A stretch of DNA of 63,633 bases, the filler included, from Neolecta irregularis DAH-3 (lineage: Eukaryota): NCBI GenBank assembly GCA_001929475.1. It is 18 parts of 18 records of this genome, joined end to end, with 100 filler letters (N's around TTAATTAATTAA, not from the genome) between each part and the next. Parts side by side here need not be neighbours in the genome. Positions count along the whole stretch, not along the records: positions 42,464 to 44,481 come from LXFE01001659.1; 17 more parts are not named here. One strand, written 5' to 3'. Below, piece after piece: positions 7,810 to 58,746 of the stretch; within the stretch, counting starts at the first letter, position 1; the number at the start of each line of letters is the position of its first letter. Under the pieces are notes generated by a model that had not been told where the DNA came from, did not search any database, and saw only the letters and a program-made list of their open reading frames with translations. The translations under genes and the position numbers were made by a program.

Positions 7810-9734
7810 CTAAGCTGGATAGTTTAGAACAAGGGATTGAGTTGAAAACATACTACTTTCTCTAATCACAAGGACAAGATTCTCCCATCCTGTTGAATGT
7901 CTCAACAGTTCATAATCTTCAATCTTTTTACTTTGTACAACCCGCCCAAGAGCTTCTTCTTCACTCTAGAATATTAATTAATTACAATGAAAGTATGATA
8001 CTTTCTCCAAGATTCCCATTCCCTTGATGAAAACAAGGAAATGGAAATCGGAAATCCTCTTGATAATCTCCTCTGTGATAGCACCACTTCTCACTCCAAG
8101 CGTCTTAGCAACATGACTAAGCTCCTGAGATTCGCCAAAGGTTTCTCTATTCTCAATAGGAAAGTCTGTAACAAACATGGCTTTAGGTTCACTAGGAAAT
8201 CCGTGCGTCAAACTTGCCAAAATGTAGTCGACCGGGAAGGCTGGTCTGGCATTTTCTTGAACTTGTACGTTATACTTATTTCGCCTTCGGTAGAATACTT
8301 CGGGTATATATCGATCATCCTCTTCTGGACAGACAAGGAGTTGCGAGGGGTCGGTACTTGGTTCGATGATGTCTGCTTCAACCATTGCCATGCCCGTATT
8401 CGAGATTTGATATGCTGACATTTCGATTCCTCCCTCGAGATTTCCAGAAATTACCACCGATACGAATTTTGAGCCAAAATAGCCCGTTTCACTCATTCTC
8501 GAGACATTTTTGTGAGAATTCTGCATTTTTGCACTAAATACAGCTTCAAGTGACGATAGAAAATACGAATCGATATGACGTTTGCATACGACTTTTGAAT
8601 CGCCGGCATCAGTCAAATCCGACCAAATCATTCCGACTTTTGTGAGTCCACAGCTCTGCGCTATAGAATCTATAGCATTTTCGTTTTCCCATGGCAAATG
8701 AATCTGTAGACCGTCTGTTTCGTTACGTTGAGGGGGTTCGTAGATTGTTTCAACGACTGCTTTTATTCCAAGAGGAACTTTATCATAAGGCTCGTAGCGC
8801 CCGTAGAGAAATCCAAAGCGTTGATGAGCTGATTTTCGCCAGGTATCGATGAATCTGTCAATGATCGAAGGGGCTGAAATCTCTACGTGATCGACCATTC
8901 GAAATGTCTAACAATTCAAGCTCAGAAGAGAGCTAGTGGAGTACCTGGGATTGCATGGTGATAGCACCAGGTTGACATTTCGAACAAATACCTTCGGGCC
9001 AAGGCGGATGACCAGAAGGGCAATTCTTTTTCACTTTGAAGTCCATTTCGCTTAATGGGGGAATGAAGGAAGTCCCCGAAGCATACTTATTCGTATGGGT
9101 ATTGAGCATTTTTAAGTAAGCATGAAATGACATGTGTTTAATCTTTTGGTCGTCGAGGTATTTTTGGTCAAAGGGCTTAATGGTCGATTAAAGTTTCAAT
9201 CAGAAAAACCACACCTCAAATGGAATGCAATGGTCGCACATTCCCTTCTCATTATGTTTGCACATTCGGTGATCGCGACCTCGGGGTATCTTTCCATCTT
9301 GTTTTTCGAGGAAATCGTCAACCGCATCCTGTTCTATTGAGATATGAGACTTCAACAGCTGCACATTGGGCAAAGGGAGGGTATGATCAAATTCTGGGTG
9401 ATGTTCCTCTCCCTGAACTTCCGAGTAGATCAGAAAGAATAAATCACCATGCCTGACATCAACCCGAAACCTTGTAAGATTACACGCGTACTTGAGGCCC
9501 ATCGTACTGATCTTTCGACCTTTTAAAGTTGTTAAAAGCTGACCTGGGTTCCCTGATGGGTGTGTTGAGATGGTCACAGCCCCAATTGGGACAAATTTGA
9601 GCTGCTCTTGAATCTTTTGTAAGTACGAAATGAATGAGAATGAAAGATACCATTTGAACGAGAAGCGCAGCGTCGTCGTTTGCCTCAATCTGAACCCTGA
9701 ACATTCCATCTCTGCTTCTGAAGCGGAGAAGCAT
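7810..9734 (-). CDS. NPL4: Nuclear protein localization protein 4 (Cdc48/p97 cofactor), 6 introns
   Basis: [13 protein letters not shown] start; [12 protein letters not shown] and [18 protein letters not shown] zinc fingers; [28 protein letters not shown]. Confidence 0.95.
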
Positions 9735-9878: not shown

Positions 9879-10567
9879 ATGGCTACATCAGTATTTGTCC
9901 CTATTATCTACGTGATCGTGCTCATCTCAACTCTTGCTGTGTTCTCTCACTTTTATAGGCGTAGAAAAGACGGTATATCCCCCTCAGCCATCTTTGAACT
10001 CGTCGCTGACTGTCATCAGCAAGTCAGTTATACGAGCCCTGGTTTCCCACACATCGCTCGCGAGATCTTTATTTATCGCTTTTACATCAAGAGCCTTCTC
10101 CCCCGTCAAAGTTGCTGAAAGCAGCTCTTCTCCGTGTTTGTCGAGTGTTGTAATATCAACTAAAGAAATAGAGGGCCGTCGAAGATGTTCGCCGTTTGCA
10201 AAAGCTTCGCGAAGGAAAACAAGCGCTTCAAACCCTTCTCCAATCTGGTTCCATTGGCGACCATTTGTGGACTGAATTCCAAATCGCCGAGAAACAATTT
10301 CAAGCCGAGTTAATGGATGTTGTTGCCGAAGCAAATGCAATGTCGGAAAATTGGGGACAGACTATATTCGGTACAGCAAGCGAGATCCTACAACATGACC
10401 GAATCAAGGAAAGTCTGAACAAGATCAAGGATATTTCGGTTAAAGAGAACCAGCGAATCGTCAAAGAGAAACTCGCTGATACAGGTAATCAGGCCAAGAT
10501 TGCGGAGACGTTGGAGAAATTGCAGAATGGAAATGGTTTGAAGATACAAGAGAAGACTAAGAAGTAG
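9879..10567 (+). CDS. SEC66: Sec62/63 translocon subunit Sec66/Sec71 (2 introns)
   Basis: N-terminal TM followed by FSHFYRRRK. Spliced reading gives EPWFPTHRSRDLYLSLLH, LLKAALLRRAVEDV, LLQSGSIGDHLW and DVVAEAN..WGQTIF. Confidence 0.88.
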
Positions 10568-11021: not shown

Positions 11022-12545
11022 ATGAATGACAACGACTTTGCCAGCATTAGCTGGGACCGTGAAGACATAGTTACAGCTCCCGAAGACAAACAGAAACCTC
11101 CTCGAGTTATCATTAGAAATTCCATTGAAGCCGAATATACCCTCACAACCAAAGTTTCCAATCCACAGAAGGAGGCTGATACCACCAAAGATGCATATAT
11201 AAGCTATCTGGTAGTGACCGAGGCATCTTTCTGCTGCTGCGCTTCGATCTGATGGTATCCAGTCAAATAATCCGCAATTCAAATGTTCGATTACACGCGT
11301 CCGTCGACGATTTACTGATTTCGTTTATCTTCATACATGTCTTGTACGCGATCATCCAGCATGCGCTATTCCCCCATTGCCTGACAAACACAAAATGGGT
11401 AGAAAAGTTTTGCTGATTGCACTCACCAGTACAGAATACATTACTGGTGATAGATTTGGTCATGAGTTCACTTCTCGCCGTTGTTCATCTCTCAATAGTT
11501 TCCTTGTCCGGTTAACCTTACACCCAACGATCAGGAGGTCCAAGATACTGCTACTATTTCTCGAAAGCGAAGATTGGCATCAGTATATGCGAGCTGGAGG
11601 AGTCAATTCGCGGAATAATAGCATTTCACCAGAAGGAGGTGTGATTGATGGCTTCATGGTCACCATAATGAATGCGTTCAGCCGGATTCATAAACAAGAT
11701 AAGCAGTTTATCGATGATAAAGCTCGTGCAGACAAATTGGGCGAGGATTCTGCGAATGTGGAGAAGATGATTCTGAAGATTGTCAAGAAGCAGATTGGTA
11801 CGTGGTCTTCCAAAGGCCCAAATATGCTGAGTGAAAGATCTAGCCACCGATTATAGCGATTTTGGAGTTCAGTGGGCAAAATTGGTGCCGTTAGAACCTG
11901 GGTTGGCCAGTGCAATTACTGCACTTTGTCGTTCGCTGGAAGAGATGTCAAAGTGCACACATGAGCTGGTATCTGTTATTACAGCGGTATATGCTTAAGA
12001 CGCAGCGTGACGAGATCGACACTACCTATCTGACATCGCTAAAAGATTTGTCTAATTACGTTGTTTCACTCAAAACTCTCCTAAAACAACGAGATCAGAA
12101 GCAGCTAGACTTTGAAAGTTTAACTGAATATCTCAACAAGCTCGTTCATGAACGCGATGGGCTCGCCAATGGTGTCACTGCTGGTGGTTTTCTTCGGGGC
12201 AAAGTTGAAGACTTGCGAGGCGTGGACCATGAGGCTGCTCGAAAAGAGCGGCTGAGAAAGCTTGAACTTCGGGTTAAAGAACTTACTGTTGCTGTTGAGA
12301 GCTCTCGAATGGAAAGCGAGGCATTTGATGAAGAATGTGTCAAGGAAGTGGCGGTGTTCGAGAAGATTAAGGAGAGGGAAATGAAACCTGCCTTGAATGT
12401 CTTGACGAATGGCCATGTTGAGTATTACAAAAAGGTATAATATTTTTCCAGATTTATATCTGACACTAAGGTCATTGATGAATGGAGCGGAGCTATTGAA
12501 AGTTTGGAGAAACTTTTGGCTGAGAATCATGAATCTGAAGGGTAG
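11022..12545 (+). CDS. SNX4: Sorting nexin-4 / Atg24 (PX-BAR), 5 introns
   Basis: TKDAYISYL, VRRRFTDF, IPPLPDKHKMEYITGDRF, LKQRDQKQLDFESLTEYL, GKVEDLRGVDHE. Confidence 0.93.
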
Positions 12546-13773: not shown

Positions 13774-14798
13774 ATGGCCATCACGTCGCAGAATGCATCT
13801 AGTCTACTACCCTTCATATCCGACAAGAATCTATCACTGGTAGCGCCTGTTGCTATTTATTGGGTGTATTCCCTTTTCTTTGCGCTTATCTCCGCGCTCC
13901 AAGTCCCGTTTATCGAAAAGTATCGTCTTCACACCCCACTGGAACTCGTCACGCGCAATAAAGCGACGTTCAAACAAGTCGTTCGCGACGTGTTCATCCA
14001 GCAAACAATTCAAATACTCCTTGGGTGGATATTACTCGTAAATGAACCCGATGAACCCCTTGTTGAAACAGTCATTGAATTATCTAAAATCGATTCATTT
14101 TTAAAACCGATTACTGGACATTATTTTAGAAAGGAATTCGTAAAGTTGGTTTGGTTTATTGGAATACCGATTGCTCGCTTTGCATTTGCTTTGTACCTTT
14201 TTGCCTGGTTTTGGGTTGACTCTAGGGTTTTCCTGGATTCTTGGCAATATTTTCTTCATCGGATAATGCACCAAAGTCGATTTCTGTACAGGACGTTTCA
14301 CTCGCGCCATCATCGGTTATACGTGCCGTATGCATTTGGAGCGCTGTATAATCATCCTTTTGAAGGACTGTTGATGGATACAATGGGCGCTGGGCTGGCG
14401 TTCAAATTAAGCGGGATGAGTGTTCGACAAAGCTGTTATTTTTTTACGTTTAGCACCATGAAAACGGGTATTTTTGGGCCATGGAATGTGTTTTTTTTGT
14501 TGATTTGAATAGTTGACGACCATTGTGGATATGTGTTTCCGTGGGATCCGCTGCAGGTTTTCTTTGGCAATAATAGTGCATAGTATGTGTGTGTTGCTAC
14601 GGGGGCGATTGATGGGATATAGTCATGATATTCATCACCAGTCATATGGGATTAAACGCAATTACTCGCAGCCGTTCTTCACATTCTGTATGCGGATCCA
14701 CTGTATGGCTGCCTAACGGGCGTGTAGGGGACCGGTGGCTGGGGACGTACCTTGCGATATCTGATGTCCCGAGCACCACCGCGGCGAAGGAGGAGTAA
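13774..14798 (+). CDS. SUR2: Sphinganine C4-hydroxylase (fatty acid hydroxylase superfamily), 4 introns
   Basis: EKYRLHTP, DSWQYFLHRIMH, FHSRHHRLYVPYAFGALYNHPFEG, KTVDDHCGY, HDIHHQ..GIKRNYSQPFF. Confidence 0.93.
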
Positions 14799-17909: not shown

Positions 17910-19387
17910 ATGTCGATATATCAGCCATGCCTGGCTTCGCTGCTGGGCGTAGCCAAACCCAAATCACCCATTTTATCGAAGATTACCAGTCGTTTTGCGC
18001 AATATAGGTATCACAATAGATGGCTTTCCGGTAGTACACTCGCAAAGTCTCCAACTAACGGTTCAAGTGCGCAAGATGGCTACTTTTCAACGTACCCTTC
18101 CTCATTTGAATATTGGAACCATTGGGCATGTAGATCATGGGTATACATAATCAACAAGAGCAATTGACCGAGGTTTAGAAAAACCACTTTAACCGCTGCT
18201 ATTACAAAGACTCTTGCTGAAAAAGGGCAAGCTGCTTTTATGGATTATAACCAGATTGATAAAGCTCCAGAAGAAAAGGCTCGAGGGATTACTATCTGTA
18301 CAGCCCACGTTGAATACCAAACCAACAATCGTCATTACGCCCATGTCGATTGTCCCGGTCACGCCGATTACATCAAAAACATGATTACTGGTGCTGCTCA
18401 GATGGACGGTGCAATTATCGTTGTCTCTGCCACAGATGGACAAATGCCTCAAACTCGTGAACATCTACTTCTTGCTCGTCAAGTCGGTGTAAAACACCTC
18501 GTGGTTTATATCAACAAAATAGACGTAATCGACGATCCCGAGATGCTTGAACTCGTAGAAATGGAAATGCGGGATTTGTTAGGAACGTACGGGTTCGATG
18601 GTGAAATGACGCCTATTATCATGGGATCTGCTCTATGTGCTTTGGAAGGTCGAAACCCGGAGATGGGAGCAGAGTCAATTGGAAAACTAATGGATGCTAT
18701 TGATTCACATATCCCGACGCCCAAACGTGTGCTCGATAAACCATATTTGATGCCTGTTGAAGACGTATTTTCGATTTCTGGAAGAGGAACTGTTGCCACG
18801 GGTCGTGTAGAACGAGGAATCCTCAAAAAGGGTGATGAAATCGAACTCATTGGATATGGAGATCCCATGAAAACTACTGTGACTGGTATTGAAGCTTTCA
18901 AAAAAGACCTTGGTACATCTCTTTCCATTACCATCTAACCAAAATAGATCAAGCAATGGCTGGAGACAACTGTGGTCTTTTGCTTCGAGGTGTTAAACGA
19001 GAACAAATAAAGCGAGGAATGATTATCTGTGCGCCAGGAACCGTCAAAGCTCATACAAAAGTACCTTTTTCCAATTTAGCAATTTAGTCTAATTGCAAGT
19101 TCCTTGCCTCATTTTATATCCTCAACAAAGAAGAAGGAGGTCGAAGAACAGGGTTCATCAATGCATACAGACCACAAATGTTTGTTAGAACATCAGACGT
19201 TACAATCACCCTGCGTCACCCTGACGGAGTCGAAGACGGTGAAAACAAAATGGTCATGCCTGGAGATAACGTCGAATTGGAATGCGAATTGGTTCACAAT
19301 ATCGCTTTAGAACAAGGACTGCGATTTACTATTCGTGAAGGAGGGAAGACTGTTGGTACAGGTCTAATTACCAAGCTACTTGATTAA
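17910..19387 (+). CDS. TUF1: Mitochondrial elongation factor Tu, 4 introns
   Basis: Basic presequence; [55 protein letters not shown]. Confidence 0.97.
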
Positions 19388-20984: not shown

Positions 20985-21879
20985 CCTAGCAACCCTAGCA
21001 ACCCCACGCTCGTACTCAAAATGACGACAAAGGTGCGCCCCGGGTAGGGTAAACTAATTGCAGGACGCCGAAAACATCGCCCATGCCGCCATCGCCCCCG
21101 ACGCCTCGCTGGTCGCCATCGCTACGGCGCAGGCCACAAAGATATGGCGCCTCGCCCCCGGCCGCCGCCCCGTCCGCCTCGGCAAGATCCCCGGCGCCCG
21201 CCTCGTGGCCGTCGCGGACTCGGGCGACCGCCTGGTGGCCGCTACCCATTCTGAGATCCACGTCTACGCGCTGCCCCAGTGCCGCCGCCTGGCGGTGCAC
21301 CGCCCCGGCACCGGCGCCATCCGCAAGCTCGCCCTCAGCCCCGCCCTGGCCCACATCGCCGTGTCCGCCGTCAGCCCCAGCCTCGCCTCGACCCTCTCCA
21401 TCATCGACGTCGCCTCCGCGCACATCGCCCACACCCACACCCCCGACCTCGCCACCGCCCTCCACTTCCCCGCAGACGACACCCTCGTCCTCACCACCAG
21501 CTCAAACGCAATCTACGAGTTCGCCACAGACTGCGCCCTCGCCCCCTGGACAAAGCGCAACCTCAAGAACCTGCCCCCCCAGCTGCTCCGCCTGCAGGAT
21601 AAGCCCCTCGGCATCACCGGTCGAGGCTCTTCCCGCTGGATCTGGGGCGCCACTTGGCTCGCCTGCATCGACACCTCCACAGACCTGCCCGCACTGAAGC
21701 GAGACCGCTGCGGCGACACAAAAGGCCGCCAGCACGGCTGGGCAATCACCTACAAATACCGCGCCATGCTCGCCTGCGAATTCTTCGCTGACGGCGATCT
21801 GGTCGTCATCGAGCGGCCCCACTTTGACATCATGAAAGACCTGCCTCCCCCTTTTTATAGACATGAATATGGTACTTGA
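20985..21879 (+). CDS. UTP4: U3 snoRNA-associated WD40 protein Utp4, 3' part (contig-truncated)
   Basis: C-terminal WIWGATWL, TYKYRAML, LVVIERP and LPPPFYRHEYGT* pattern typical of Utp4. Confidence 0.75.
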
Positions 21880-22022
21880 TATTGATCTGATATGAATTCC
21901 CTGATATTGAATTCCCTGATATTGAATTCCCTGATATTGAATTCATCCGATATTGAATTCATCCGATATTAAATTCATCCAATGTTTCTGCTATTATTCT
22001 CCCTGACATGCCTCAACTCAGA

Positions 22023-23375
22023 ATGACCTCCAAAACTCTCCTCGTTGCATTCCTGCTCAGAATCGCTCTGTCATACACCCCCCATCTCGCCCATCGCCTC
22101 GAAAACAGAGTAGAACTCGTTACACCAGTCACCTCCTACCGCAGACGTCTCTTCTGGTTAGGGTCCGCTCATCTCTAGTCAAAGAAGGCCTTTTTCTCTA
22201 CCGCAGAGACGTCCCGCCCTATGACGGCGGTGTATTCCACCAGTCCCCCATCATCCTGGCCCTATTCTCGGTAATACCAGAATCCCTCGTTCCCCTCCTC
22301 TTTGCCGCTGTAGACGTGTTTTGTGCATGGATCGTTTCACGCATCGCAACACACAGAGCCCTCGACAGACCTTGGATCTCCGCTTCTCTGTCCTTCCCTG
22401 CCTAGCCCTGCTGACCACAGATATGCATTCAATCCATATACCCTGGTATCCTGTCTAAGCAAAACAACAGGCCTCTTCACAAATGCTGCTGTCCTCGTCG
22501 CAGTCCTCGGCGCATGCGAGGGTACCCCACCTGCCTCCCTTGGTTCACCCCGCAGGAAATATCGCTACCAGCATGATGGCCGGCGCTATCGCAGCATACC
22601 TCGAGCTCTACCCACTCCTCTTTCTCCCGCCTCTCATCCTCCTCCTCAACGACTCGAAAAAATCAAACGTCGCCCTAAAGTCTCTCGTCATCTTCACCGC
22701 CACGGTCGCTGGTTTACTTGCATCAAGCTACTTTCTCATAGACTCGTGGAACTTTATTGAATCCACTTATGGAGCCATGTATTCTCTCCTCTTTCCTTCT
22801 AACTCCCAGCCTCTTTGTCCACGATTTAACTCCAAATATCGGTCTCTGGTGGTACTTTTTCATCGAAATGTTCAACTCCTTTCGCGCATTTTTTACAGTC
22901 GTCTTTCAATTGCACCTGGTAATTTACGTTGCCCCTCTCTGCATCAAACTACGGTTCGTCTCCTTATATCCCGTCTTATATAGAAACAACCCCCTCTTCG
23001 TCTGCGTCATCATCTCAGGAATAATCTCCATCTTCAAATCCTACCCTTCGGTCTCGGATTTATCCCTCTTCCAGAATCTCCTCTTTTTCTTTCCAGAAAT
23101 TTTCTCTCGTGCGCCCTTCAACTACAAAATTGACTCTAGGCATGCGCTATACTTTTTTCTCCACCTCCACTCTCTTATACACCACCCTCCTCGGTCCCGC
23201 ATTTTATCATCTGTGGATTATCAGTGGAACAGGTAACGCAAACTTTTTCTACGCAATCACTCTAGTACACACCCTGGCCCAAACCGTCACCCTCAGTGAC
23301 GCACTCTACGCCATGCTCAGACTCGAATGGGATTTACAAACGGGAAAACACGGAATAAAAGTCTTTCAAATTTGA
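22023..23375 (+). CDS. GAB1: GPI transamidase subunit PIG-U/Gab1, 6 introns
   Basis: RVELVTPVTSYRRLKEGLFLY, PYDGGVFHQSP, DLTPNIGLWWYFFIEMF, FKSYPSVSD, GTGNANFFYAITL. Confidence 0.95.
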
Positions 23376-42290: not shown

Positions 42291-42492
42291 GTATCCGGAT
42301 GCCAAGGTTTTCTGTTTCCCTTACTTTCTAGTTTCAAGTCTTTGATATAGGTTTCACTCTCTGNNNNNNNNNNNNNNNNNNNNNNNNNNNNNNNNNNNNN
42401 NNNNNNNTTAATTAATTAANNNNNNNNNNNNNNNNNNNNNNNNNNNNNNNNNNNNNNNNNNNNTCCCCCTCCCCCTCCCCCCTCACCCGTAG

Positions 42493-42658
42493 GGCTTTGA
42501 CGAATTCATGAATCTCGTAGTCGACAACGCAAAAGAAGTCCATGCGAAAAAAGATACAAAGAGGCCTCTAGGTGCTTTCTCCTTCTCCCTCGCTCATCCT
42601 AGGTCGCATCCTGCTAAAGGGCGATAACATCACTCTCATAGAACCTATCCTGTTATAA
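42493..42658 (+). CDS. SME1: Spliceosomal Sm protein E, 3' exons
   Basis: GFDEFMNLVVD...PL|GRILLKGDNITLI. Confidence 0.9.
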
Positions 42659-42989
42659 TATGATACTTCTGTAACCTTTTCCTATTGTTCATATTCAATT
42701 ATATCCTGGTGTACTGTTCAAAAATCATCTAAAAAATTGGTTGCTTTTCTTTGTAGCAGTGTCATCCTTGTGCAGGGGCCATGCTCTAAATCTGTCAGAC
42801 CCGTGTCTCGAACGCACGACGCGCGCCAAACTTACAATCTTCTCTGTATCGTTACAATGTGACCAAATGCCCCGAAGGGCATCAGTACATATTAATTACT
42901 CTTTATATCCAGCTTTATTCCCGCAAATTTCCAAGGGGATCGTATCTGCATTCAGGAATCTCGCCAAGTTCGACCTCAACTCTCTCTCG

Positions 42990-43590
42990 ATGACGAAAAA
43001 AAGAAAACTATCCACTTCCTCCACGACCCCGCCTTCCCCTTTAAAAATACCAAAATCCACTACCCCGTCCTCATTTCACCTTCAACACGCAAAATTTCAA
43101 ATTTTACTCCCTCCAATATACTCTGAAACCCCCCTCTTAGGTGCCACAGATTATCTCGATTCCTTGCTTTTATCTTACCATCATCCACTAAATGGCGTCA
43201 TACTTGCCTATCAAAATGTAGAATTCGAAGACAAGGTTGCAAAGATTTTATATGATTCGCCTTATGCTAGAACTAATATCTTGGCCGAAATATTAGTTTG
43301 GAGACCTACTAAGGGTGAATTCATTGGAATGTCCTGCAGTATATCAATTGACTAATTTTATAGAAGGCGACGTGAATTTACAATCGCCAGACCATATCGG
43401 CCTTTTATTACACGGTACATTCAACGCCAGCATATCCCGCGATAAAATCCCAGAATCGTGGAAATTTCACGGTACTGCTTGGAAAAATGCACACGGGGAG
43501 ACTATTAACGGGTTATTGAAATTTAAAGTACAAGGCTGGAAAACAACGGGCTCAATTATATCAGTGTCAGGATCATTAAAACCTGAATAA
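42990..43590 (+). CDS. RPA43: RNA polymerase I subunit A43 (1 intron, apparent GA donor)
   Basis: LDSLLLSY..LNGVILAY, ILYDSPY, LVWRP..G..IEG.VNLQSPDHIGLLLHGTFNASI. Confidence 0.88.
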
Positions 43591-43592
43591 CA

Positions 43593-44310
43593 GTGTTGGG
43601 GATAGACCATGGTTGGACTTTGGGTGGAAACGGTATTAATAACTCATGTATTAACAAAAACTCAAACAATCCGATAATAATACTTGATCACAAAATTCCG
43701 GTTCACAGGAAAGCAGCTTGGTCCCCTGAACACAATTCTTCACTAAACACAGCATCCAACAGAAACTTGCTCGCGGGCTTGGTATACTTTCCTTTCTTAT
43801 CCACCAGAAAACAATTAGTACCGTGACTAAAAGAATCCTTGGCCATCTGTACAAAGCCACGGTCAGTACGAATCACACTGTTCTCGCCCCAAAGCCGCAA
43901 ATATCGAAGACAAGTTGCATAATCATCGGAATCATTGACACTATCCAATCCACACCGCATATAGTTGTTCAACCTCCTTCTCTCAGCTGCAGCATGATAG
44001 ATTCGCTTGATATTGGAAAGCTTTGGTGGTGTAAGCATCGCGCATGCAGGTTTCACTGCATAAAGATGACAAAAGAAACAAATCCAAGTCCTTGTAAAGG
44101 ACTGAATATGGATACTTGAGACATCAAGAGTTTTGCTGGAAAGAGAAAAAGGCGTATTTGGATAAACAGAGCATCGTAAGGGATGCTTAGAGTGGGAAGA
44201 TGGAATAACCCGCGGATAACACAGCGGTGGGGCAAGCATCGAGATAGTTGTCGAGGTGGATAGATACCGACTTGCCGAGATTCCTTGAATCTGCCGCTAA
44301 TTACCCTCAT
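43593..44310 (-). CDS. Hypothetical protein (exon structure unresolved)
   Basis: Overlapping minus-strand ORFs between RPA43 and RPS24; no family recognised. Confidence 0.3.
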
Positions 44311-44403
44311 AATTATGTTGTGACTTAGCTAACTGCATCAACACCAAAAACCACCTCCGACGACCCTCTGAACCTTTTGCCCATATCACCCAGTTCGCTA
44401 ATC

Positions 44404-44460
44404 ATGGGCGACGCTGTCACTATTCGAACAAGAAAATTTATAACAAATAGGCTTCTTCAG
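44404..44460 (+). CDS. RPS24: 40S ribosomal protein S24 (eS24), exon 1 only
   Basis: MGDAVTIRTRKFITNRLLQ followed by a GT donor; the contig then ends. Confidence 0.88.
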
Positions 44461-44829
44461 GTATTTACGATTCATCCAAAANNNNNNNNNNNNNNNNNNN
44501 NNNNNNNNNNNNNNNNNNNNNNNNNTTAATTAATTAANNNNNNNNNNNNNNNNNNNNNNNNNNNNNNNNNNNNNNNNNNNNGGCGAGAGGGGCAAGGAGG
44601 GACGGAAAGTGCGGGACAGGAGAGGAGGCACGGGCGGAATATGAGAGTAGACACGGGCGGGATGCAGAGACAGAGAGGAAGGAGGGAGTGGTGGGACGGG
44701 AAAGCGGGCAGGACTGGAAAGTTGGGTGGGACTAGAAAAAGGGACAGGACTGGACAGGCGGGTGGGACAGGACTGAGGAAAGACGACCAGTCCATGGACC
44801 TGATTGGTCCATCCACAGCACTCACTTAG

Positions 44830-46085: not shown

Positions 46086-47453
46086 TGCCTGTAGTGCCAA
46101 CCAAATTACCCACCTAAGAGTTCTCTGCTGGGTGGGTGGGTAGATTACTAATTGCCACCGGTCGGGTGGGGTTGGCCATACTGGCCCCGCCCACCTCACC
46201 CGTTACTGCACCCCTTCCCCCTCCTTGCCCTTTATCGCCCCACCCTCTCACCTGTTATTGCCTGCCCTCCTCGCCCGCTATCGCCCGCCCTCCTCGCCCG
46301 TTACTGCCTGCCTCCTCACCAGTTATCGCCCCGCCCACTTCGCCCCTTACTGCTCCCCTTTCACCCACTCGCCTCTCCCACCTGCCGCCTTGGCCCTCGC
46401 CCTGACTTCCCCCTTGCCCCCCCTCCTCGCTACACTCCTCTACATCGGACAATGTCATATCATCCTGCAGAACATTCAGTTTTGATTACCAGTGTAGAAT
46501 TTCAGTTATATTCGTCGTATTGATGGCAGCAGGCATCTGGCAACGGCGATTATGAGTTAATTGCTTTTCCACCCGAGAGTGGCCTTCTAGACGTGTTCGA
46601 ATCAAAGGGGGATTCCGGGTCAAGTGTAATTTTCGTCGCGAGAAATCCTCGTCTGCTATCGCTCTGACCTCTCGCCGGTTACTGCCCACCCTCCTCGCCC
46701 ATTGTCCCTATCAACCCTCCACCTCCTCGTCCTTTATCGCCCCGCCCTCTACACCTGTTATCGCATGCCCTCCTCGCCTGCAATCTCACCACCCAACTCG
46801 CCTGCAATCTCCCCGCCCAACTCGCCAGTTACTGCCCCCCTTCCCCTCCTCGCCGATTACTATTCCCCCTTCCCCTCCTCGTCCTTTATCGCCCTGCCCT
46901 CTCGCCCGTTACTTCCCGCCCTCTCGCCCGTTACTTCCCGCCCTCTCGCCCGTTACTTCCTCTCGCCCGTTACTTCCCGCCCTCCCCACCCGTTATCGCC
47001 GCTGCAGCCCCCAGAAGAGCGCTCATGGACACGATTGTACCCGCAGCTGCGGCTGCAACCGCCCGATGTGCCTGCCCTTTACCAGGGAGAGACGAATTAC
47101 CGAAGTAATGACATAGGGCTCAGGGTGATAGAATGAGGCGAATTTGTCTGGGCGGGAGGTCAATTTGGCATGGAGAATGCATTGGCCAATTTTAAATGAA
47201 ATGATTGGGTTGTACTAATCAACTTCATATGTGCACTGATCATATATTTGCTCAGTAATCAACTTATGCTTGGTGAGGAGCTACTTGTTTAGGATCATTT
47301 GTGAAGCAAACCAGAGGACAGGATCAAAAAATGGCGACTGGATCCCAAAGAACAAGCATGTTACACTGCCCACCCTCAAGTTTTAGTATCAGCCAAACTT
47401 GCACATGATACATCAGTGTCATGCTCATTGGCACTGCCTTTGCCATCCCACCA

Positions 47454-51215: not shown

Positions 51216-51962
51216 AAACTCTTCCTGTGTTGGAGGCAATTGCTGGTAATTTTGGTGGTTTTCCTCAGATTCACTGAATTAGTGTTGACTGTGGGATTCT
51301 GTATGTGGCCATGGTGGCTTTAGTGAGGTAAATTGCTATATGGATTATGCCCAAGCATACTTCCACCTTTTATTACAGAATTAGGCACAGTACCAGCAGC
51401 AGATGAGTGGATTGACAAGATGGGCAGGCAGGTAGGAGTGAGGGACAGGTGGGTAGGAGTGAGGGATAGGCAGGCAGGCTGGAGTGAGGGACAGGCACAA
51501 TGGATGGGAACAATTGCACTGGCAGGAGGGAGGGACAGGTGGGCAGGAGGGAGGGACAAGTGGGTGGGAGGTAGGGGCAGGCATGATAGAGGGGAACAGG
51601 TGAGTGTGTGGGAGGGAGGGAAAGGTGCATGGGAAGGAAGTAAAGATATGTAGAATGGTGGGAGGGACAGGCAAATGGGAGGGCAGGAGAAATAGGTGCA
51701 TAGTGGGAAGGAGGGAAAGGTGTGCAAGAGGGTGGGAGGGTGGTTGGGAAAGGTGTACAAGAGGGTGGGAGGGTGGTTGGGACAAGAGGGCAGGATGGCA
51801 GGAGGGCAGGAGGGCAGGAGGGCAGGAGGGCAGGAGGGCAGGAGGGCAGGAGGGCAGGAGGGNNNNNNNNNNNNNNNNNNNNNNNNNNNNNNNNNNNNNN
51901 NNNNNNTTAATTAATTAANNNNNNNNNNNNNNNNNNNNNNNNNNNNNNNNNNNNNNNNNNNN

Positions 51963-56581: not shown

Positions 56582-57098
56582 ATGCGCGCCGCAGTGCTGC
56601 TTGCCCTCGCCGGCTGCGTCCTCGCCGACACCCCCGCCTGCGTCATCACCTGCGTCAACAAGGAATCCTCCTGCAACATCAGCGACACAAAGTGCCTCTG
56701 CACCGTCGTCGGCTCCGACGTGCTGCTGTGTCTCGGCCAGACGTGCCCCACAGGCCCCGGCACGCAAAGCTTCAAGAGCACCTGCGAAAGCTTTGGCTAC
56801 ACCGTCGGCGGCTCCAGTACGCTCCCGTGTCCCCCGTTGCTGATCCGTGTCCAGGTGCTAAAGACTCGGCCGCATCAAAAGACGCGTCCTCCACAAAAGA
56901 CGCGTCCTCCACAAGTGCGCCCCCGTCGTCCGCAACAAACCCCTCAAAGACTACGTCTGCTTCTGCCTCGTACTCCCCTTTTGCTTCTCTGCTCACCCCA
57001 GCGGTCAATCCGCTGCCGGCTCCCCTAAAAGTGTCGCTGCCCTCTCTTCTGCACACTTGCTCCTAGCCTTTTGGAGTCTGCTGGTCATTCTCGTCTAG
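56582..57098 (+). CDS. CFEM-domain GPI-anchored protein (2 introns)
   Basis: Signal peptide; 8-Cys PACVITC..C..DTKCLC..C..C..C pattern with the conserved Asp; S/T linker; hydrophobic tail LLLAFWSLLVILV*. Confidence 0.85.
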
Positions 57099-57164
57099 TC
57101 CCTAATCTGATTCCAATATAATACATCTTCCTTGATCCTATGTCTACTCGTGATTCTATCTTGA

Positions 57165-57773
57165 TCACCGAACCCTCCCCCCCCTTGGAAACTCCCTACT
57201 CTCTTCCGTCGCCCACCTTGCAACCATCCCAGAGTACTCCTTTGCTCTCGCCATCAGCTCGGCTTTCCCCCCTGTCCGATACTTGGTCACCTTGCTCACA
57301 TTATGCATAGTCACCGCTGACGCCTCCTCCCCCTTATTGTTCGCCCGCGCTATAGCCATCGCCGTCATCGTGTACAACATATCCCGAGGCCCGTCCACAA
57401 GCTCAAGAATAGCCTGAGGCGCATTGTCCCCATACCGGGGCGGCAGCCGAAGCACCCGCGTATACCCCCCGGGTCGCTCCCGGTACCGCTCCGCAAGCTC
57501 CCCAAACACCTTGGGCAACGTCCGCCCATGATCCTGCAATCAGCAATCTTCCGGCACATCTCCTACAAATAACTTGGCCATCGCTCCGCCCCTGTTTGAT
57601 CCCTTCTTCCCCAGTGTAATCACCTTTTCGGCAACACTCTGCGCTTCCTTGGCTTTAGGCCACGTCGTAATAATAGACTCGTGCAGAAACAGTGAAGAAA
57701 CAAGGTTCCTCAACAATGCTGACCGAGCCCCCATAGTCCTGCCCAGTCTCCTCGCATCTGGTTTGATTGGCAT
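57165..57773 (-). CDS. MRPL8: Mitochondrial ribosomal protein bL17m (1 intron)
   Basis: [60 protein letters not shown]. Confidence 0.92.
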
Positions 57774-57844
57774 GTCAAGGCGAATCCGAAAAACGACCAA
57801 AAACGACCGAAACCGACCGAAACCGACCGAAACCTTCCACCAAT

Positions 57845-58015
57845 ATCCATATCCTCCATATCCTCCATATCCTTCTATCCTTCTATCCTCCATATCCTTC
57901 TATCCTTCTATCCTTCTATCCTTCTATCCTTCTATCCTTCTATCCTTCTATCCTTCTATCCTTCTATCCTCCATATCCTTCATATCTCCATATCTCCATA
58001 TCCTCCATATCCATA
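57845..58015 (+). repeat. (TATCCTTC)n / (CATATCCTC)n minisatellite upstream of MRPL8
   Basis: Directly visible tandem 8-9-mers. Confidence 0.9.
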
Positions 58016-58746
58016 TTATTCTATTTGAGGCTGAATCTTAATATGATGTCCTGGTCCGAGGGAGATCACGACGAAGAGCCCTCTGATCCTTTTATCCAAC
58101 CCGACCAACCACCACTGCCCACCAAAGCACCCTCCAGACGGGCCGTTCAGACCTATTCGGCGGACGGTTGGACACATTAATTATCTAAAACATCTCACTA
58201 TCTACATCAGTCTATGTTTAGGCGTTTTACTATTCAATATTTGAAACATTTAAGGAGCAATGAGAATGAATATAATTCCTTTGTGCTAATTAGAACTGAG
58301 TTCTACTGCGTAGGTGTTTCATATATTGTTCAAGATGAACGAACGGTTTGTGCCGATGCTTAGCCATGATGGAACTTGAAATTTCTACCAATGCAGAAAG
58401 ATAAGGAAACAGGGGTGTTTTAGCGTTTCACCCTCTTTTAGAGGATGTCCTATCGCCATGCCGGGAAACCTGATAGCCAACAGGTAGTATCATGGCATCT
58501 GATTCCAAGGATCCCAAGGGTTATCTTAGGTATGATAGTAGTTTCTTATTCTCGGAGAATAAATCAGAGTCATGTAACTGAAACTTGTGTTTTCCTGGCG
58601 TGATTTAAAATATCGACGGGACCGTTTGGATGGTTTCACGATCTAGGTGGAGAATAGATCAAAATATAAAGGCACTTGTGCTCGCTCGGGAATATCAGAA
58701 AATCTACTTTCGAGCTTTCAGCTTAATATTCTCGATAATCTTCCTC

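What the first reader, a model, noticed from the sequence alone, without database searches (positions are those of the whole stretch)
43327..43363. Apparent GA-AG intron in the conserved Pol I subunit RPA43
Seen: ATT G|gaatgtcctgcagtatatcaattgactaattttatag|AA GGC. The 37-nt intron has a good ctaat branch and a donor that matches GTATGT except for +2 T>A. Only this junction restores the Rpa43 spacing W-R-P-x-x-G-x-x-[LI]-E-G. The in-frame GT alternatives either delete GEFI (49-nt intron) or insert 4 residues (25-nt intron). GA donors are extremely rare in fungi.
Basis: partly seen in the sequence, partly recalled or inferred. Interest (0 to 1): 0.78.

Follow-up and report, generated by a model that had tools for sequence, protein, structure and literature searches.

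The report
Probable GA-AG intron in Neolecta RPA43
A 37-base intron in the RNA polymerase I subunit gene RPA43 of the fungus Neolecta irregularis seems to start with GA instead of the usual GT, and the public gene model avoids this by using a nearby GT, which removes four conserved amino acids; this is rare but already known in fungi.

Summary
The window is a chain of Neolecta irregularis DAH-3 contigs, and the gene is RPA43 (ATG 42990, stop 43588-43590).

There are three in-frame ways to remove the interruption:
- GT 43315 to AG 43363, 49 nt. This is the deposited NCBI model and it loses G-E-F-I.
- GA 43327 to AG 43363, 37 nt.
- GT 43339 to AG 43363, 25 nt. This adds 4 residues.

Only the GA junction keeps the spacing that 145 of 149 orthologue representatives and 4 of 4 solved Rpa43 sequences share. 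It scores 238.3 bits on an orthologue profile, against 221.6 and 227.5 for the other two.

Eighteen introns I curated elsewhere in the window are 31-45 nt long (median 36). So 37 nt is typical, 49 nt is long and 25 nt is too short.

No reads or RNA could be reached, so three points stay untested: whether A 43328 is real, whether GA is spliced, and whether the upstream GT is used instead or as well. An AlphaFold model folds the shorter protein confidently, and 45-50 nt introns do exist.

GA-AG introns are already documented in fungi (about 0.04% in Ganoderma). My verdict is a probable rare GA-AG intron and a probable misannotation. It is a new member of a known kind, of moderate-low interest.

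The parts
42990..43326 (+). RPA43 exon 1 under the GA-AG reading (112 codons plus the first base of the junction codon); it ends with the codons for G-E-F-I
   Evidence: Translation. Pfam SHS2_Rpb7-N scores 23.1 bits, just under its cut-off of 24.8. It aligns to the solved Rpa43 of S. pombe, yeast and human.
43315..43326 (+). 12 nt that are intron in the deposited model and exon in the GA reading; they encode G-E-F-I
   Evidence: Deposited protein P0003 lacks these residues. In the orthologues, the column matching G is G in 119 of 149, and the column matching I is L/I/V/M in 146 of 149.
43315..43316 (+). Canonical GT donor (GTGAAT) used by the deposited model; it gives a 49-nt intron
   Evidence: The product of isoform GT49 is identical to P0003.
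43327..43363 (+). Proposed 37-nt GA-AG intron (donor GAATGT, acceptor TAG)
   Evidence: Sequence. It is the only junction that keeps the family spacing. Its length lies at the centre of 18 curated introns in the window (z = 0.2).
43331..43332 (+). Competing GT inside the proposed donor (GTCCTG); with AG 43363 it would give a 33-nt out-of-frame intron and an early stop
   Evidence: Direct reading. The length z-score is -0.8.
43339..43340 (+). Third in-frame donor (GTATAT); it gives a 25-nt intron
   Evidence: 227.5 bits, a 4-residue insertion. It is shorter than all 18 curated introns (z = -3.0).
43351..43355 (+). CTAAT branch-like motif, with 8 bases between its A and the intron's 3' end
43361..43366 (+). 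Acceptor TAG followed directly by AAG (tandem NAGNAG-type acceptor); use of the second AG would drop the E
   Evidence: Direct reading. Candidates ending at 43366 are listed.
43364..43590 (+). RPA43 exon 2 (last two bases of the junction codon, 74 codons, stop 43588-43590)
   Evidence: Translation. Pfam RPA43_OB scores 69.4 bits, E 4.4e-19, and profile position 8 aligns to the first residue.

Best explanation
The gene is the single-intron RPA43 gene of Neolecta irregularis. Its functional mRNA is most likely made by removing a 37-nt U2-type intron that begins GA (43327) and ends AG (43363). This joins the G at 43326 to the AA at 43364-43365 to make the Glu codon, and it keeps the family-wide W-x-P-x-x-G-x-x-[LI]-E-G spacing.

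The deposited 183-aa model uses the canonical GT 12 nt upstream only because gene callers demand GT or GC, so it is probably a misannotation.

Inferred mechanism:
- The weak +2 position is offset by a match to the GTATGT consensus at +1 and +3 to +6 (ATGT at +3 to +6), by G at -1, by a CTAAT branch, and by the species-typical intron length.
- The in-frame GT 12 nt upstream may help to recruit the 5' splice-site machinery, as reported for the GA site of the human FGFR genes. It may also give a minor isoform lacking four residues.

Shown here: the anatomy, the conservation argument and the intron-length context. Inferred: that A 43328 is real and that GA is used.
For: 1. Four of 4 solved Rpa43 sequences (S. 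pombe 7aoc_G, yeast 2rf4_A and 4c2m_4, human 7ob9_G) align to the deposited protein with a 4-residue gap exactly at the junction.

2. 145 of 149 orthologue representatives have no indel between the W and the H-I-G. The Taphrinomycotina relatives Saitoella, Pneumocystis oryctolagi and S. pombe all keep the four residues.

3. On the orthologue HMM the GA isoform scores 238.3 bits, 16.7 more than the deposited isoform and 10.8 more than the 25-nt option.

4. The 12 nt skipped by the deposited model encode G-x-x-I. The family has G in 119 of 149 and L/I/V/M in 146 of 149 at those columns.

5. Eighteen introns curated in six other genes of the window are 31-45 nt long, median 36. Five of them are confirmed by exactly abutting Pfam profile coordinates. 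On this scale 37 nt has z = 0.2, 49 nt z = 3.4 and 25 nt z = -3.0.

6. Neolecta donors are degenerate beyond GT(A). Only 1 of 18 has ATGT at +3 to +6, but the GA donor does, which fits compensation.

7. The genome paper gives 199-fold coverage (PMC5309816, passages), which makes a consensus base error unlikely a priori.

8. GA-AG introns are documented in fungi: 35 in the Ganoderma lingzhi table, 0.038% (PMC11590231, passage), and GA-AG is listed for F. graminearum (PMC3577648, passages). A human GA-AG junction misannotated to a nearby GT-AG is described in PMC4176328 (passages).
Against: - There is no transcript or read evidence of any kind. No RNA holder was listed and no genome is held.
- A canonical, in-frame GT-AG alternative exists and is the deposited model.
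- AlphaFold2 folds the 183-aa deposited protein confidently: mean pLDDT 92.2, and 94 for residues 101-110. Compared with the S. pombe model, the four residues are two loop residues plus the first two of a strand, so the deletion may be tolerated.
- Longer introns do occur in this window: one curated 45-nt intron and a 50-nt intron in the U6 gene. So 49 nt is unusual but not excluded.
- All 18 curated introns are GT-AG, so nothing suggests that Neolecta uses non-GT donors often.
- A GT at +5 of the proposed donor (43331) would give a 33-nt out-of-frame intron and could compete (reading).
- Recalled, not checked here: GU-to-GA donor mutations usually stall splicing after the first step.
- The curated intron set is small and was found by looking for short solutions. 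Several junctions were left unresolved.
Confidence: 0.5

Rival explanations
1. The deposited model is right. The ancestral donor at 43327 was recently lost through a T-to-A change, and the cell now splices from the canonical GT at 43315 (49-nt intron). This makes a working Rpa43 that lacks four residues at the start of the OB domain.
For: - It is a canonical GT-AG pair, in frame, and identical to the deposited protein.
- The AlphaFold2 model of that protein is confident across the junction. The missing residues map to a loop and a strand start in the S. pombe model.
- Donors beginning GTG occur in 3 of 18 curated introns.
- Introns of 45 and 50 nt exist in the window.
Against: - 145 of 149 orthologues and 4 of 4 solved structures keep the length.
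- This isoform scores 16.7 bits below the GA isoform.
- 49 nt is longer than all 18 curated mRNA introns (z = 3.4).
- The skipped 12 nt still read as a good G-x-x-I match and the old donor is otherwise intact. The switch would therefore have to be very recent (inference).
Confidence: 0.25
2. The A at 43328 is not the organism's true base. It could be a consensus error in a short 2,018-bp contig, or the minority or defective allele of a mixed (heterokaryotic) field fruiting body. The real donor would then be an ordinary GTATGT.
For: - One substitution turns GAATGT into GTATGT, a donor also seen once among the curated introns.
- The contig is only 2,018 bp, against an assembly N50 of 16 kb.
- The material was field-collected fruiting bodies (PMC5309816, passages).
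Against: - Mean coverage is 199-fold, so consensus substitution errors should be very rare.
- A rough prior from the Ganoderma rate of 0.038% GA-AG makes a real GA donor several-fold more likely than an error falling on one particular donor base (inference).
- Nothing in the window shows poor quality here, but no reads could be inspected.
Confidence: 0.15
3. Both donors are used as a tandem pair 12 nt apart, as in human FGFR1-3. This would give two Rpa43 isoforms, with and without G-E-F-I. Use of the GA site would depend on the upstream GT.
For: - The two sites are in frame and 12 nt apart.
- Papers state that recognition of the FGFR GA site depends on a canonical GT 6 nt upstream (PMC4176328 and PMC7072748, passages).
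Against: - There is no isoform evidence.
- The spacing is 12 nt rather than 6.
- Nothing is known here about Neolecta splice-site choice.
Confidence: 0.1

Closest known systems
GA 5' splice site of the human FGFR1-3 genes (Twigg 1998 and Brackenridge 2003, as cited and summarised in PMC4176328 and PMC7072748; I saw passages only)
   Same: It is a U2-type GA-AG intron. A canonical GT lies a few bases upstream in the same frame, so the two sites would give proteins that differ by a few residues.
   Different: There the GT is 6 nt upstream, both isoforms are shown by cDNA, and the introns are long vertebrate ones. Here the GT is 12 nt upstream, the intron is 37 nt, and use of either site is untested.
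GA-AG introns recorded in fungal transcript-based annotations (Ganoderma lingzhi 35 = 0.038%, PMC11590231; Fusarium graminearum, PMC3577648; passages)
   Same: These are fungal nuclear introns with a GA donor and an AG acceptor, at a very low frequency.
   Different: Those are supported by transcripts, and partly by Sanger sequencing, in Basidiomycota and Pezizomycotina. This one is in Taphrinomycotina and rests on protein conservation alone.
ITPR1 GA-AG junction misannotated to a nearby GT-AG (PMC4176328, passages)
   Same: A pipeline that demands a canonical site shifts the junction to a neighbouring GT and changes the product.
   Different: [quoted passage not shown] This one is not settled.
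GA-AG-rich genomes of Oikopleura dioica and Eurytemora affinis (PMC7072748, abstract and sections)
   Same: GA donors.
   Different: In one of those species GA-AG reaches about 3% of supported junctions, and the GA is flanked by AG upstream and A downstream. Here 18 of 18 other curated introns are GT-AG.
Rpa43 / A43 subunit of RNA polymerase I (solved: S. pombe 7aoc_G, yeast 2rf4_A and 4c2m_4, human 7ob9_G)
   Same: The domain order is the same (Rpb7-like N-terminal domain, then the RPA43 OB domain). The protein is 42% identical to the S. pombe protein and short like it (173 aa there).
   Different: The Neolecta protein has a 30-residue Ser/Thr/Pro/Lys-rich N-terminus. The deposited version lacks four residues at the start of the OB domain.

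Membership tests
RNA polymerase I subunit RPA43 | RPA43 OB domain (Pfam PF17875) above the curated cut-off | tested here: met
   Exon 2 scores 69.4 bits against a cut-off of 27.6, E 4.4e-19.
RNA polymerase I subunit RPA43 | Rpb7-like SHS2 N-terminal domain (PF03876) | tested here: inconclusive
   Exon 1 scores 23.1 bits against a cut-off of 24.8. However, the region aligns to solved Rpa43 chains.
RNA polymerase I subunit RPA43 | Sequence similarity to experimentally solved Rpa43 chains | tested here: met
   E-values are 2.4e-25 for S. pombe 7aoc_G, 1.8e-22 and 2.3e-20 for the yeast chains, and 1.1e-10 for human.
RNA polymerase I subunit RPA43 | Fixed spacing between the W-x-P motif and H-I-G | tested here: met
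   It is met only by the GA-AG product. 145 of 149 orthologues have no indel there. The deposited product is 4 residues short.
U2-type GA-AG intron | G at +1, AG at the 3' end, and consensus-like +3 to +6 | tested here: met
   The donor is GAATGT and the intron ends TAG. ATGT at +3 to +6 is seen in only 1 of 18 curated donors.
U2-type GA-AG intron | Branch-site motif close to the acceptor, and a length within the species' range | tested here: met
   A CTAAT lies with 8 bases between its A and the 3' end. The length is 37 nt, against 31-45 nt for 18 curated introns.
U2-type GA-AG intron | The junction is seen in cDNA or RNA-seq | not testable with these tools
   No RNA run was listed. No transcript-derived protein of the longer form is in the protein collection.
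U2-type GA-AG intron | The non-canonical base is confirmed in genomic reads | not testable with these tools
   No genome or reads are held. Two metagenome scans found nothing.
FGFR-type GA donor that depends on an upstream GT | A canonical GT a few bases upstream, in frame | tested here: met
   GT 43315 lies 12 nt upstream and in frame. In FGFR the distance is 6 nt (passages).
FGFR-type GA donor that depends on an upstream GT | Both isoforms are expressed, and the GA site is lost when the GT is mutated | not testable with these tools
   This needs RNA data and a minigene experiment.
U12-type (minor spliceosome) intron | Donor of the form [AG]TATCC, and a TCCTTAAC-like branch (motifs recalled) | tested here: not met
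   The donor is GAATGT and no such branch is present in 43327-43363.

The most novel reading that the evidence does not exclude
Neolecta, whose introns are among the shortest known in fungi (31-45 nt here) and whose donors keep little beyond GT(A), may define introns mainly by length and branch/acceptor. In that case it would tolerate non-GT donors. The RPA43 site would then be one of a class of GA (or other) donors hidden behind canonical-only annotation, or a regulated GT/GA tandem pair giving two Pol I subunit isoforms.
Probability: 0.12. Interest if true: 0.6.

Novelty: new member of a known kind. Interest (0 to 1): 0.35.

Why it matters
If the GA junction is real, the public Rpa43 sequence of Neolecta (183 aa) is four residues short in a conserved segment. 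Annotation that allows only canonical sites has hidden a non-canonical intron, as has been described for a human gene.

It would also add a Taphrinomycotina example to the few fungal GA-AG introns. This example has a GT 12 nt upstream, which recalls the FGFR arrangement and could be tested in a minigene.

It does not change what is known about splicing chemistry, and it is unproven without reads. The wider context may be more useful for re-annotating this genome than the single intron: introns of 31-45 nt with almost no donor consensus beyond GT(A).

Tried and rejected
Searches for reads or independent copies that found nothing:
- RNA runs: none was listed for window 42900-43700.
- Whole genome: none is held.
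- Independent copies of the locus: a metagenome scan with the protein and another with a 28-nt exon-2 string both found nothing.
- ORF fragments or transcript-derived forms in the protein collection: only the deposited protein was found. That was 1 hit among 45 candidates of 133-2000 aa, and none of 53-170 aa.
- Earlier notes of this scan: none.

Automatic intron discovery failed:
- I tried ORF joining with control dinucleotides and a codon-usage filter. GT-AG candidates were no more frequent than controls.
- I therefore fell back on hand curation in Pfam-recognised genes.
- Junctions left unresolved and not counted are near 10105-10184, 11798-11910, 21876-21984, 46454-46590, 51264-51388 and 56865-58035. 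They may hide longer introns, micro-exons or non-canonical sites.

Readings rejected:
- The 25-nt intron: it is shorter than all 18 curated introns, its donor lies only 15 nt from the branch A, and it inserts 4 residues.
- GT 43315 to AG 43339: 25 nt, no branch motif, and the wrong spacing.
- GT 43331: out of frame.
- GC donors: none is in frame.
- A U12-type intron: the donor does not match.

Pfam could not score the short SUR2-like exons.

Full report
**What the window is**

The 63,633-base window is not one chromosome stretch. It is 19 contigs joined by a spacer of 44 N, TTAATTAATTAA and 44 N. The finding lies on a contig of 2,018 bp (window 42464-44481).

A search with the exon-2 translation returned one protein that is 100% identical. 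Its sources name it DNA-directed RNA polymerase I subunit rpa43 of Neolecta irregularis DAH-3, 183 aa, seen on one contig of 2,018 bp.

The genome paper (PMC5309816, passages only) reports:
- a 14.5-Mb assembly at 199-fold coverage with an N50 of 16 kb;
- material from field fruiting bodies;
- that both DNA and RNA were sequenced.

**The observation**

- The reading frame that starts at ATG 42990 runs into a TAA at 43353.
- A second frame, open up to the stop at 43588-43590, carries the RPA43 OB domain: Pfam PF17875, 69.4 bits against a cut-off of 27.6. Profile position 8 aligns to its first residue, so seven profile positions must come from upstream of the junction.
- The first exon matches the Rpb7-like SHS2 domain just below its cut-off, at 23.1 against 24.8 bits.

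With acceptor AG 43362-43363, exactly three donors keep the frame. I rebuilt all three from coordinates.

| Donor | Intron length | Product |
|---|---|---|
| GT 43315 | 49 nt | Loses G-E-F-I; identical to the deposited protein |
| GA 43327 | 37 nt | 187 aa |
| GT 43339 | 25 nt | Gains four residues and turns the Glu into Lys |

A GT at 43331 would give a 33-nt intron that is out of frame. No GC donor is in frame (reading).

**Which junction fits the protein family**

- A phmmer search of the deposited protein against all solved chains found four Rpa43 sequences: S. pombe 7aoc_G, yeast 2rf4_A and 4c2m_4, and human 7ob9_G. All four alignments open a 4-residue gap in the Neolecta protein exactly at the junction.
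- A full HMMER scan of 1.84 billion representatives gave 882 hits at E up to 0.001. I took the 150 listed and removed the Neolecta protein itself.
- Of the remaining 149, aligned to their own profile, 145 have no insertion or deletion between the conserved W and the H of H-I-G.
- The four exceptions are one larger deletion that includes the four columns (P0073), one 9-column deletion further on (P0142), one single-column deletion (P0122) and one 19-residue insertion (P0137).
- At the columns matched by the skipped residues, the family has G in 119 of 149 and L/I/V/M in 146 of 149.
- The named Taphrinomycotina relatives Saitoella complicata, Pneumocystis oryctolagi and S. pombe all keep the four residues.
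- Against the 149-sequence profile, the GA product scores 238.3 bits, the 25-nt product 227.5 and the deposited product 221.6.

**Intron context in the same window**

Automatic searches for introns by ORF joining drowned in noise, because GT-AG candidates were no more frequent than control dinucleotides. I therefore curated junctions by hand in genes that Pfam recognises. The genes were:
- a mitochondrial-type EF-Tu;
- NPL4;
- a class I/II aminotransferase that reads like a serine palmitoyltransferase subunit;
- a fatty-acid hydroxylase family gene;
- PIG-U;
- THO complex subunit 1;
- one further ORF pair.

Five junctions are confirmed by Pfam profile coordinates that abut exactly across the intron:

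| Junction | Profile positions on either side |
|---|---|
| EF-Tu, first | 14 / 16, with the junction codon as 15 |
| EF-Tu, second | 44 / 47 |
| NPL4, first | 41 / 42 |
| NPL4, second | 118 / 119 |
| PIG-U | 36 / 37 |

The rest rest on three things: frames that close inside the intron, a unique or best GT-AG solution, and conserved motifs that I recognised from memory.

Results for the 18 introns:
- All begin GT and end AG.
- Their lengths are 31, 31, 32, 32, 33, 34, 34, 35, 36, 36, 37, 38, 39, 39, 39, 39, 40 and 45 nt (median 36).
- Beyond GT, the donors keep only a preference for A at +3 (12 of 18).
- G at +5 occurs in 4 of 18, and ATGT at +3 to +6 in 1 of 18.

On this scale the 37-nt GA intron is typical (z = 0.2), the 49-nt intron is long (z = 3.4) and the 25-nt intron is too short (z = -3.0).

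Two cautions apply:
- The set is small, and I found it by looking for short solutions. I left six or so junctions unresolved (listed under Tried and rejected).
- The U6 snRNA gene just upstream carries a 50-nt intron. So 49 nt is unusual for a coding gene here but not impossible.

**What speaks against the GA reading**

- AlphaFold2, given an alignment of 55 sequences, folds the deposited 183-aa protein with a mean pLDDT of 92.2, and 94 over residues 101-110. It places a 4-residue loop before a 7-residue strand at the junction.
- The S. pombe protein modelled in the same way has a 6-residue loop and a 9-residue strand. The four residues are therefore two loop residues plus two strand residues, and their loss need not destroy the fold.
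- The deposited junction is canonical.
- All 18 other introns are canonical.
- The GT at 43331 could compete.
- From memory, not checked here: donor GU-to-GA mutations usually block the second step of splicing.

**Weighing the explanations**

The conservation data make it very likely that the ancestral donor, and probably the present one, sits at 43327. The 12 nt upstream of it still read as a good family match. The site is otherwise a match to GTATGT, in a genome where that is rare.

Given that, there are three possible states:
- The A is real and GA is spliced.
- The A is real and the cell has switched to the GT 12 nt upstream.
- The A is not the true base.

Published transcript-based annotation puts GA-AG at 0.038% of Ganoderma lingzhi introns (35 in its table; PMC11590231, passage). 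GA-AG is also listed among the non-canonical pairs of Fusarium graminearum (PMC3577648, passages). At 199-fold coverage, an error on one given donor base should be rarer than that (inference).

The rare consensus-like +3 to +6 is what one expects of a donor that must compensate for a bad +2. It is not expected under the other two states (inference).

My weights are:

| Explanation | Confidence |
|---|---|
| GA-AG intron is used | 0.5 |
| Deposited GT junction is the only one used | 0.25 |
| Wrong or minority base at 43328 | 0.15 |
| Tandem use of both donors | 0.1 |

The tandem reading overlaps the first two.

**Comparison with what is known**

- GA-AG U2-type introns are known from the human FGFR genes. 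Recognition of the GA there is reported to depend on a canonical GT 6 nt upstream (PMC4176328 and PMC7072748, passages).
- In human ITPR1, annotation had shifted the junction to a nearby GT-AG (PMC4176328).
- In Oikopleura and Eurytemora, GA-AG introns are frequent (PMC7072748).
- They are also known from the two fungi above.

The Neolecta case shares the upstream in-frame GT (12 nt away rather than 6) and the annotation artefact. It is therefore a new member of a known kind.

I found no paper that mentions this intron. My searches were 'Neolecta irregularis' + 'intron', 'Neolecta' + 'complex multicellularity' + 'genome' and 'GA-AG' + 'non-canonical splice' + 'fungi'. They cover only the held library.

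**Verdict**

Interest is moderate-low (0.35). Read mapping and an RT-PCR would settle it.

Noticed in passing
window 42732-42880, minus strand (intron about 42786-42835): A U6 snRNA gene (Rfam RF00026, 70.2 bits) lies about 110 nt upstream of the RPA43 start codon and points the other way. It carries a 50-nt insertion right after the ACAGAGAAGAUU box. The insertion reads GTAAGT...CTGAC...TTTAG, an mRNA-type intron at the place known (recalled) from the S. pombe U6 gene.
   Followed up: partly
window-wide; 18 curated introns, for example 18141-18178, 18913-18947, 8908-8944(-), 9176-9214(-), 22147-22178, 14468-14512: Introns of Neolecta coding genes are extremely short (31-45 nt, median 36). Their donors show almost no consensus beyond GT plus a preference for A at +3. 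Examples are GTCTCT, GTCCTT, GTTCCT and GTGCGC.
   Followed up: partly
window 1-63633 (spacers such as 42364-42463 and 44482-44581): The window is a chain of 19 separate contigs joined by 44 N + TTAATTAATTAA + 44 N. Neighbouring genes across a spacer are therefore not necessarily neighbours in the genome.
   Followed up: yes
window 43361-43366: The intron's acceptor TAG is followed directly by AAG, a tandem acceptor. Use of the second AG would drop the conserved Glu.
   Followed up: no
window 21876-21984, 56865-58035, 10105-10184, 51264-51388, 11798-11910, 46454-46590: Junctions between likely exons for which my enumeration found either no GT-AG solution of 25-130 nt or only long ones (74-125 nt). 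They may hide micro-exons, longer introns or further non-canonical sites.
   Followed up: no
window 9453-9491, minus strand: A probable 39-nt NPL4 intron has no in-frame stop and a length divisible by three. Its retention would insert 13 residues rather than break the frame.
   Followed up: no
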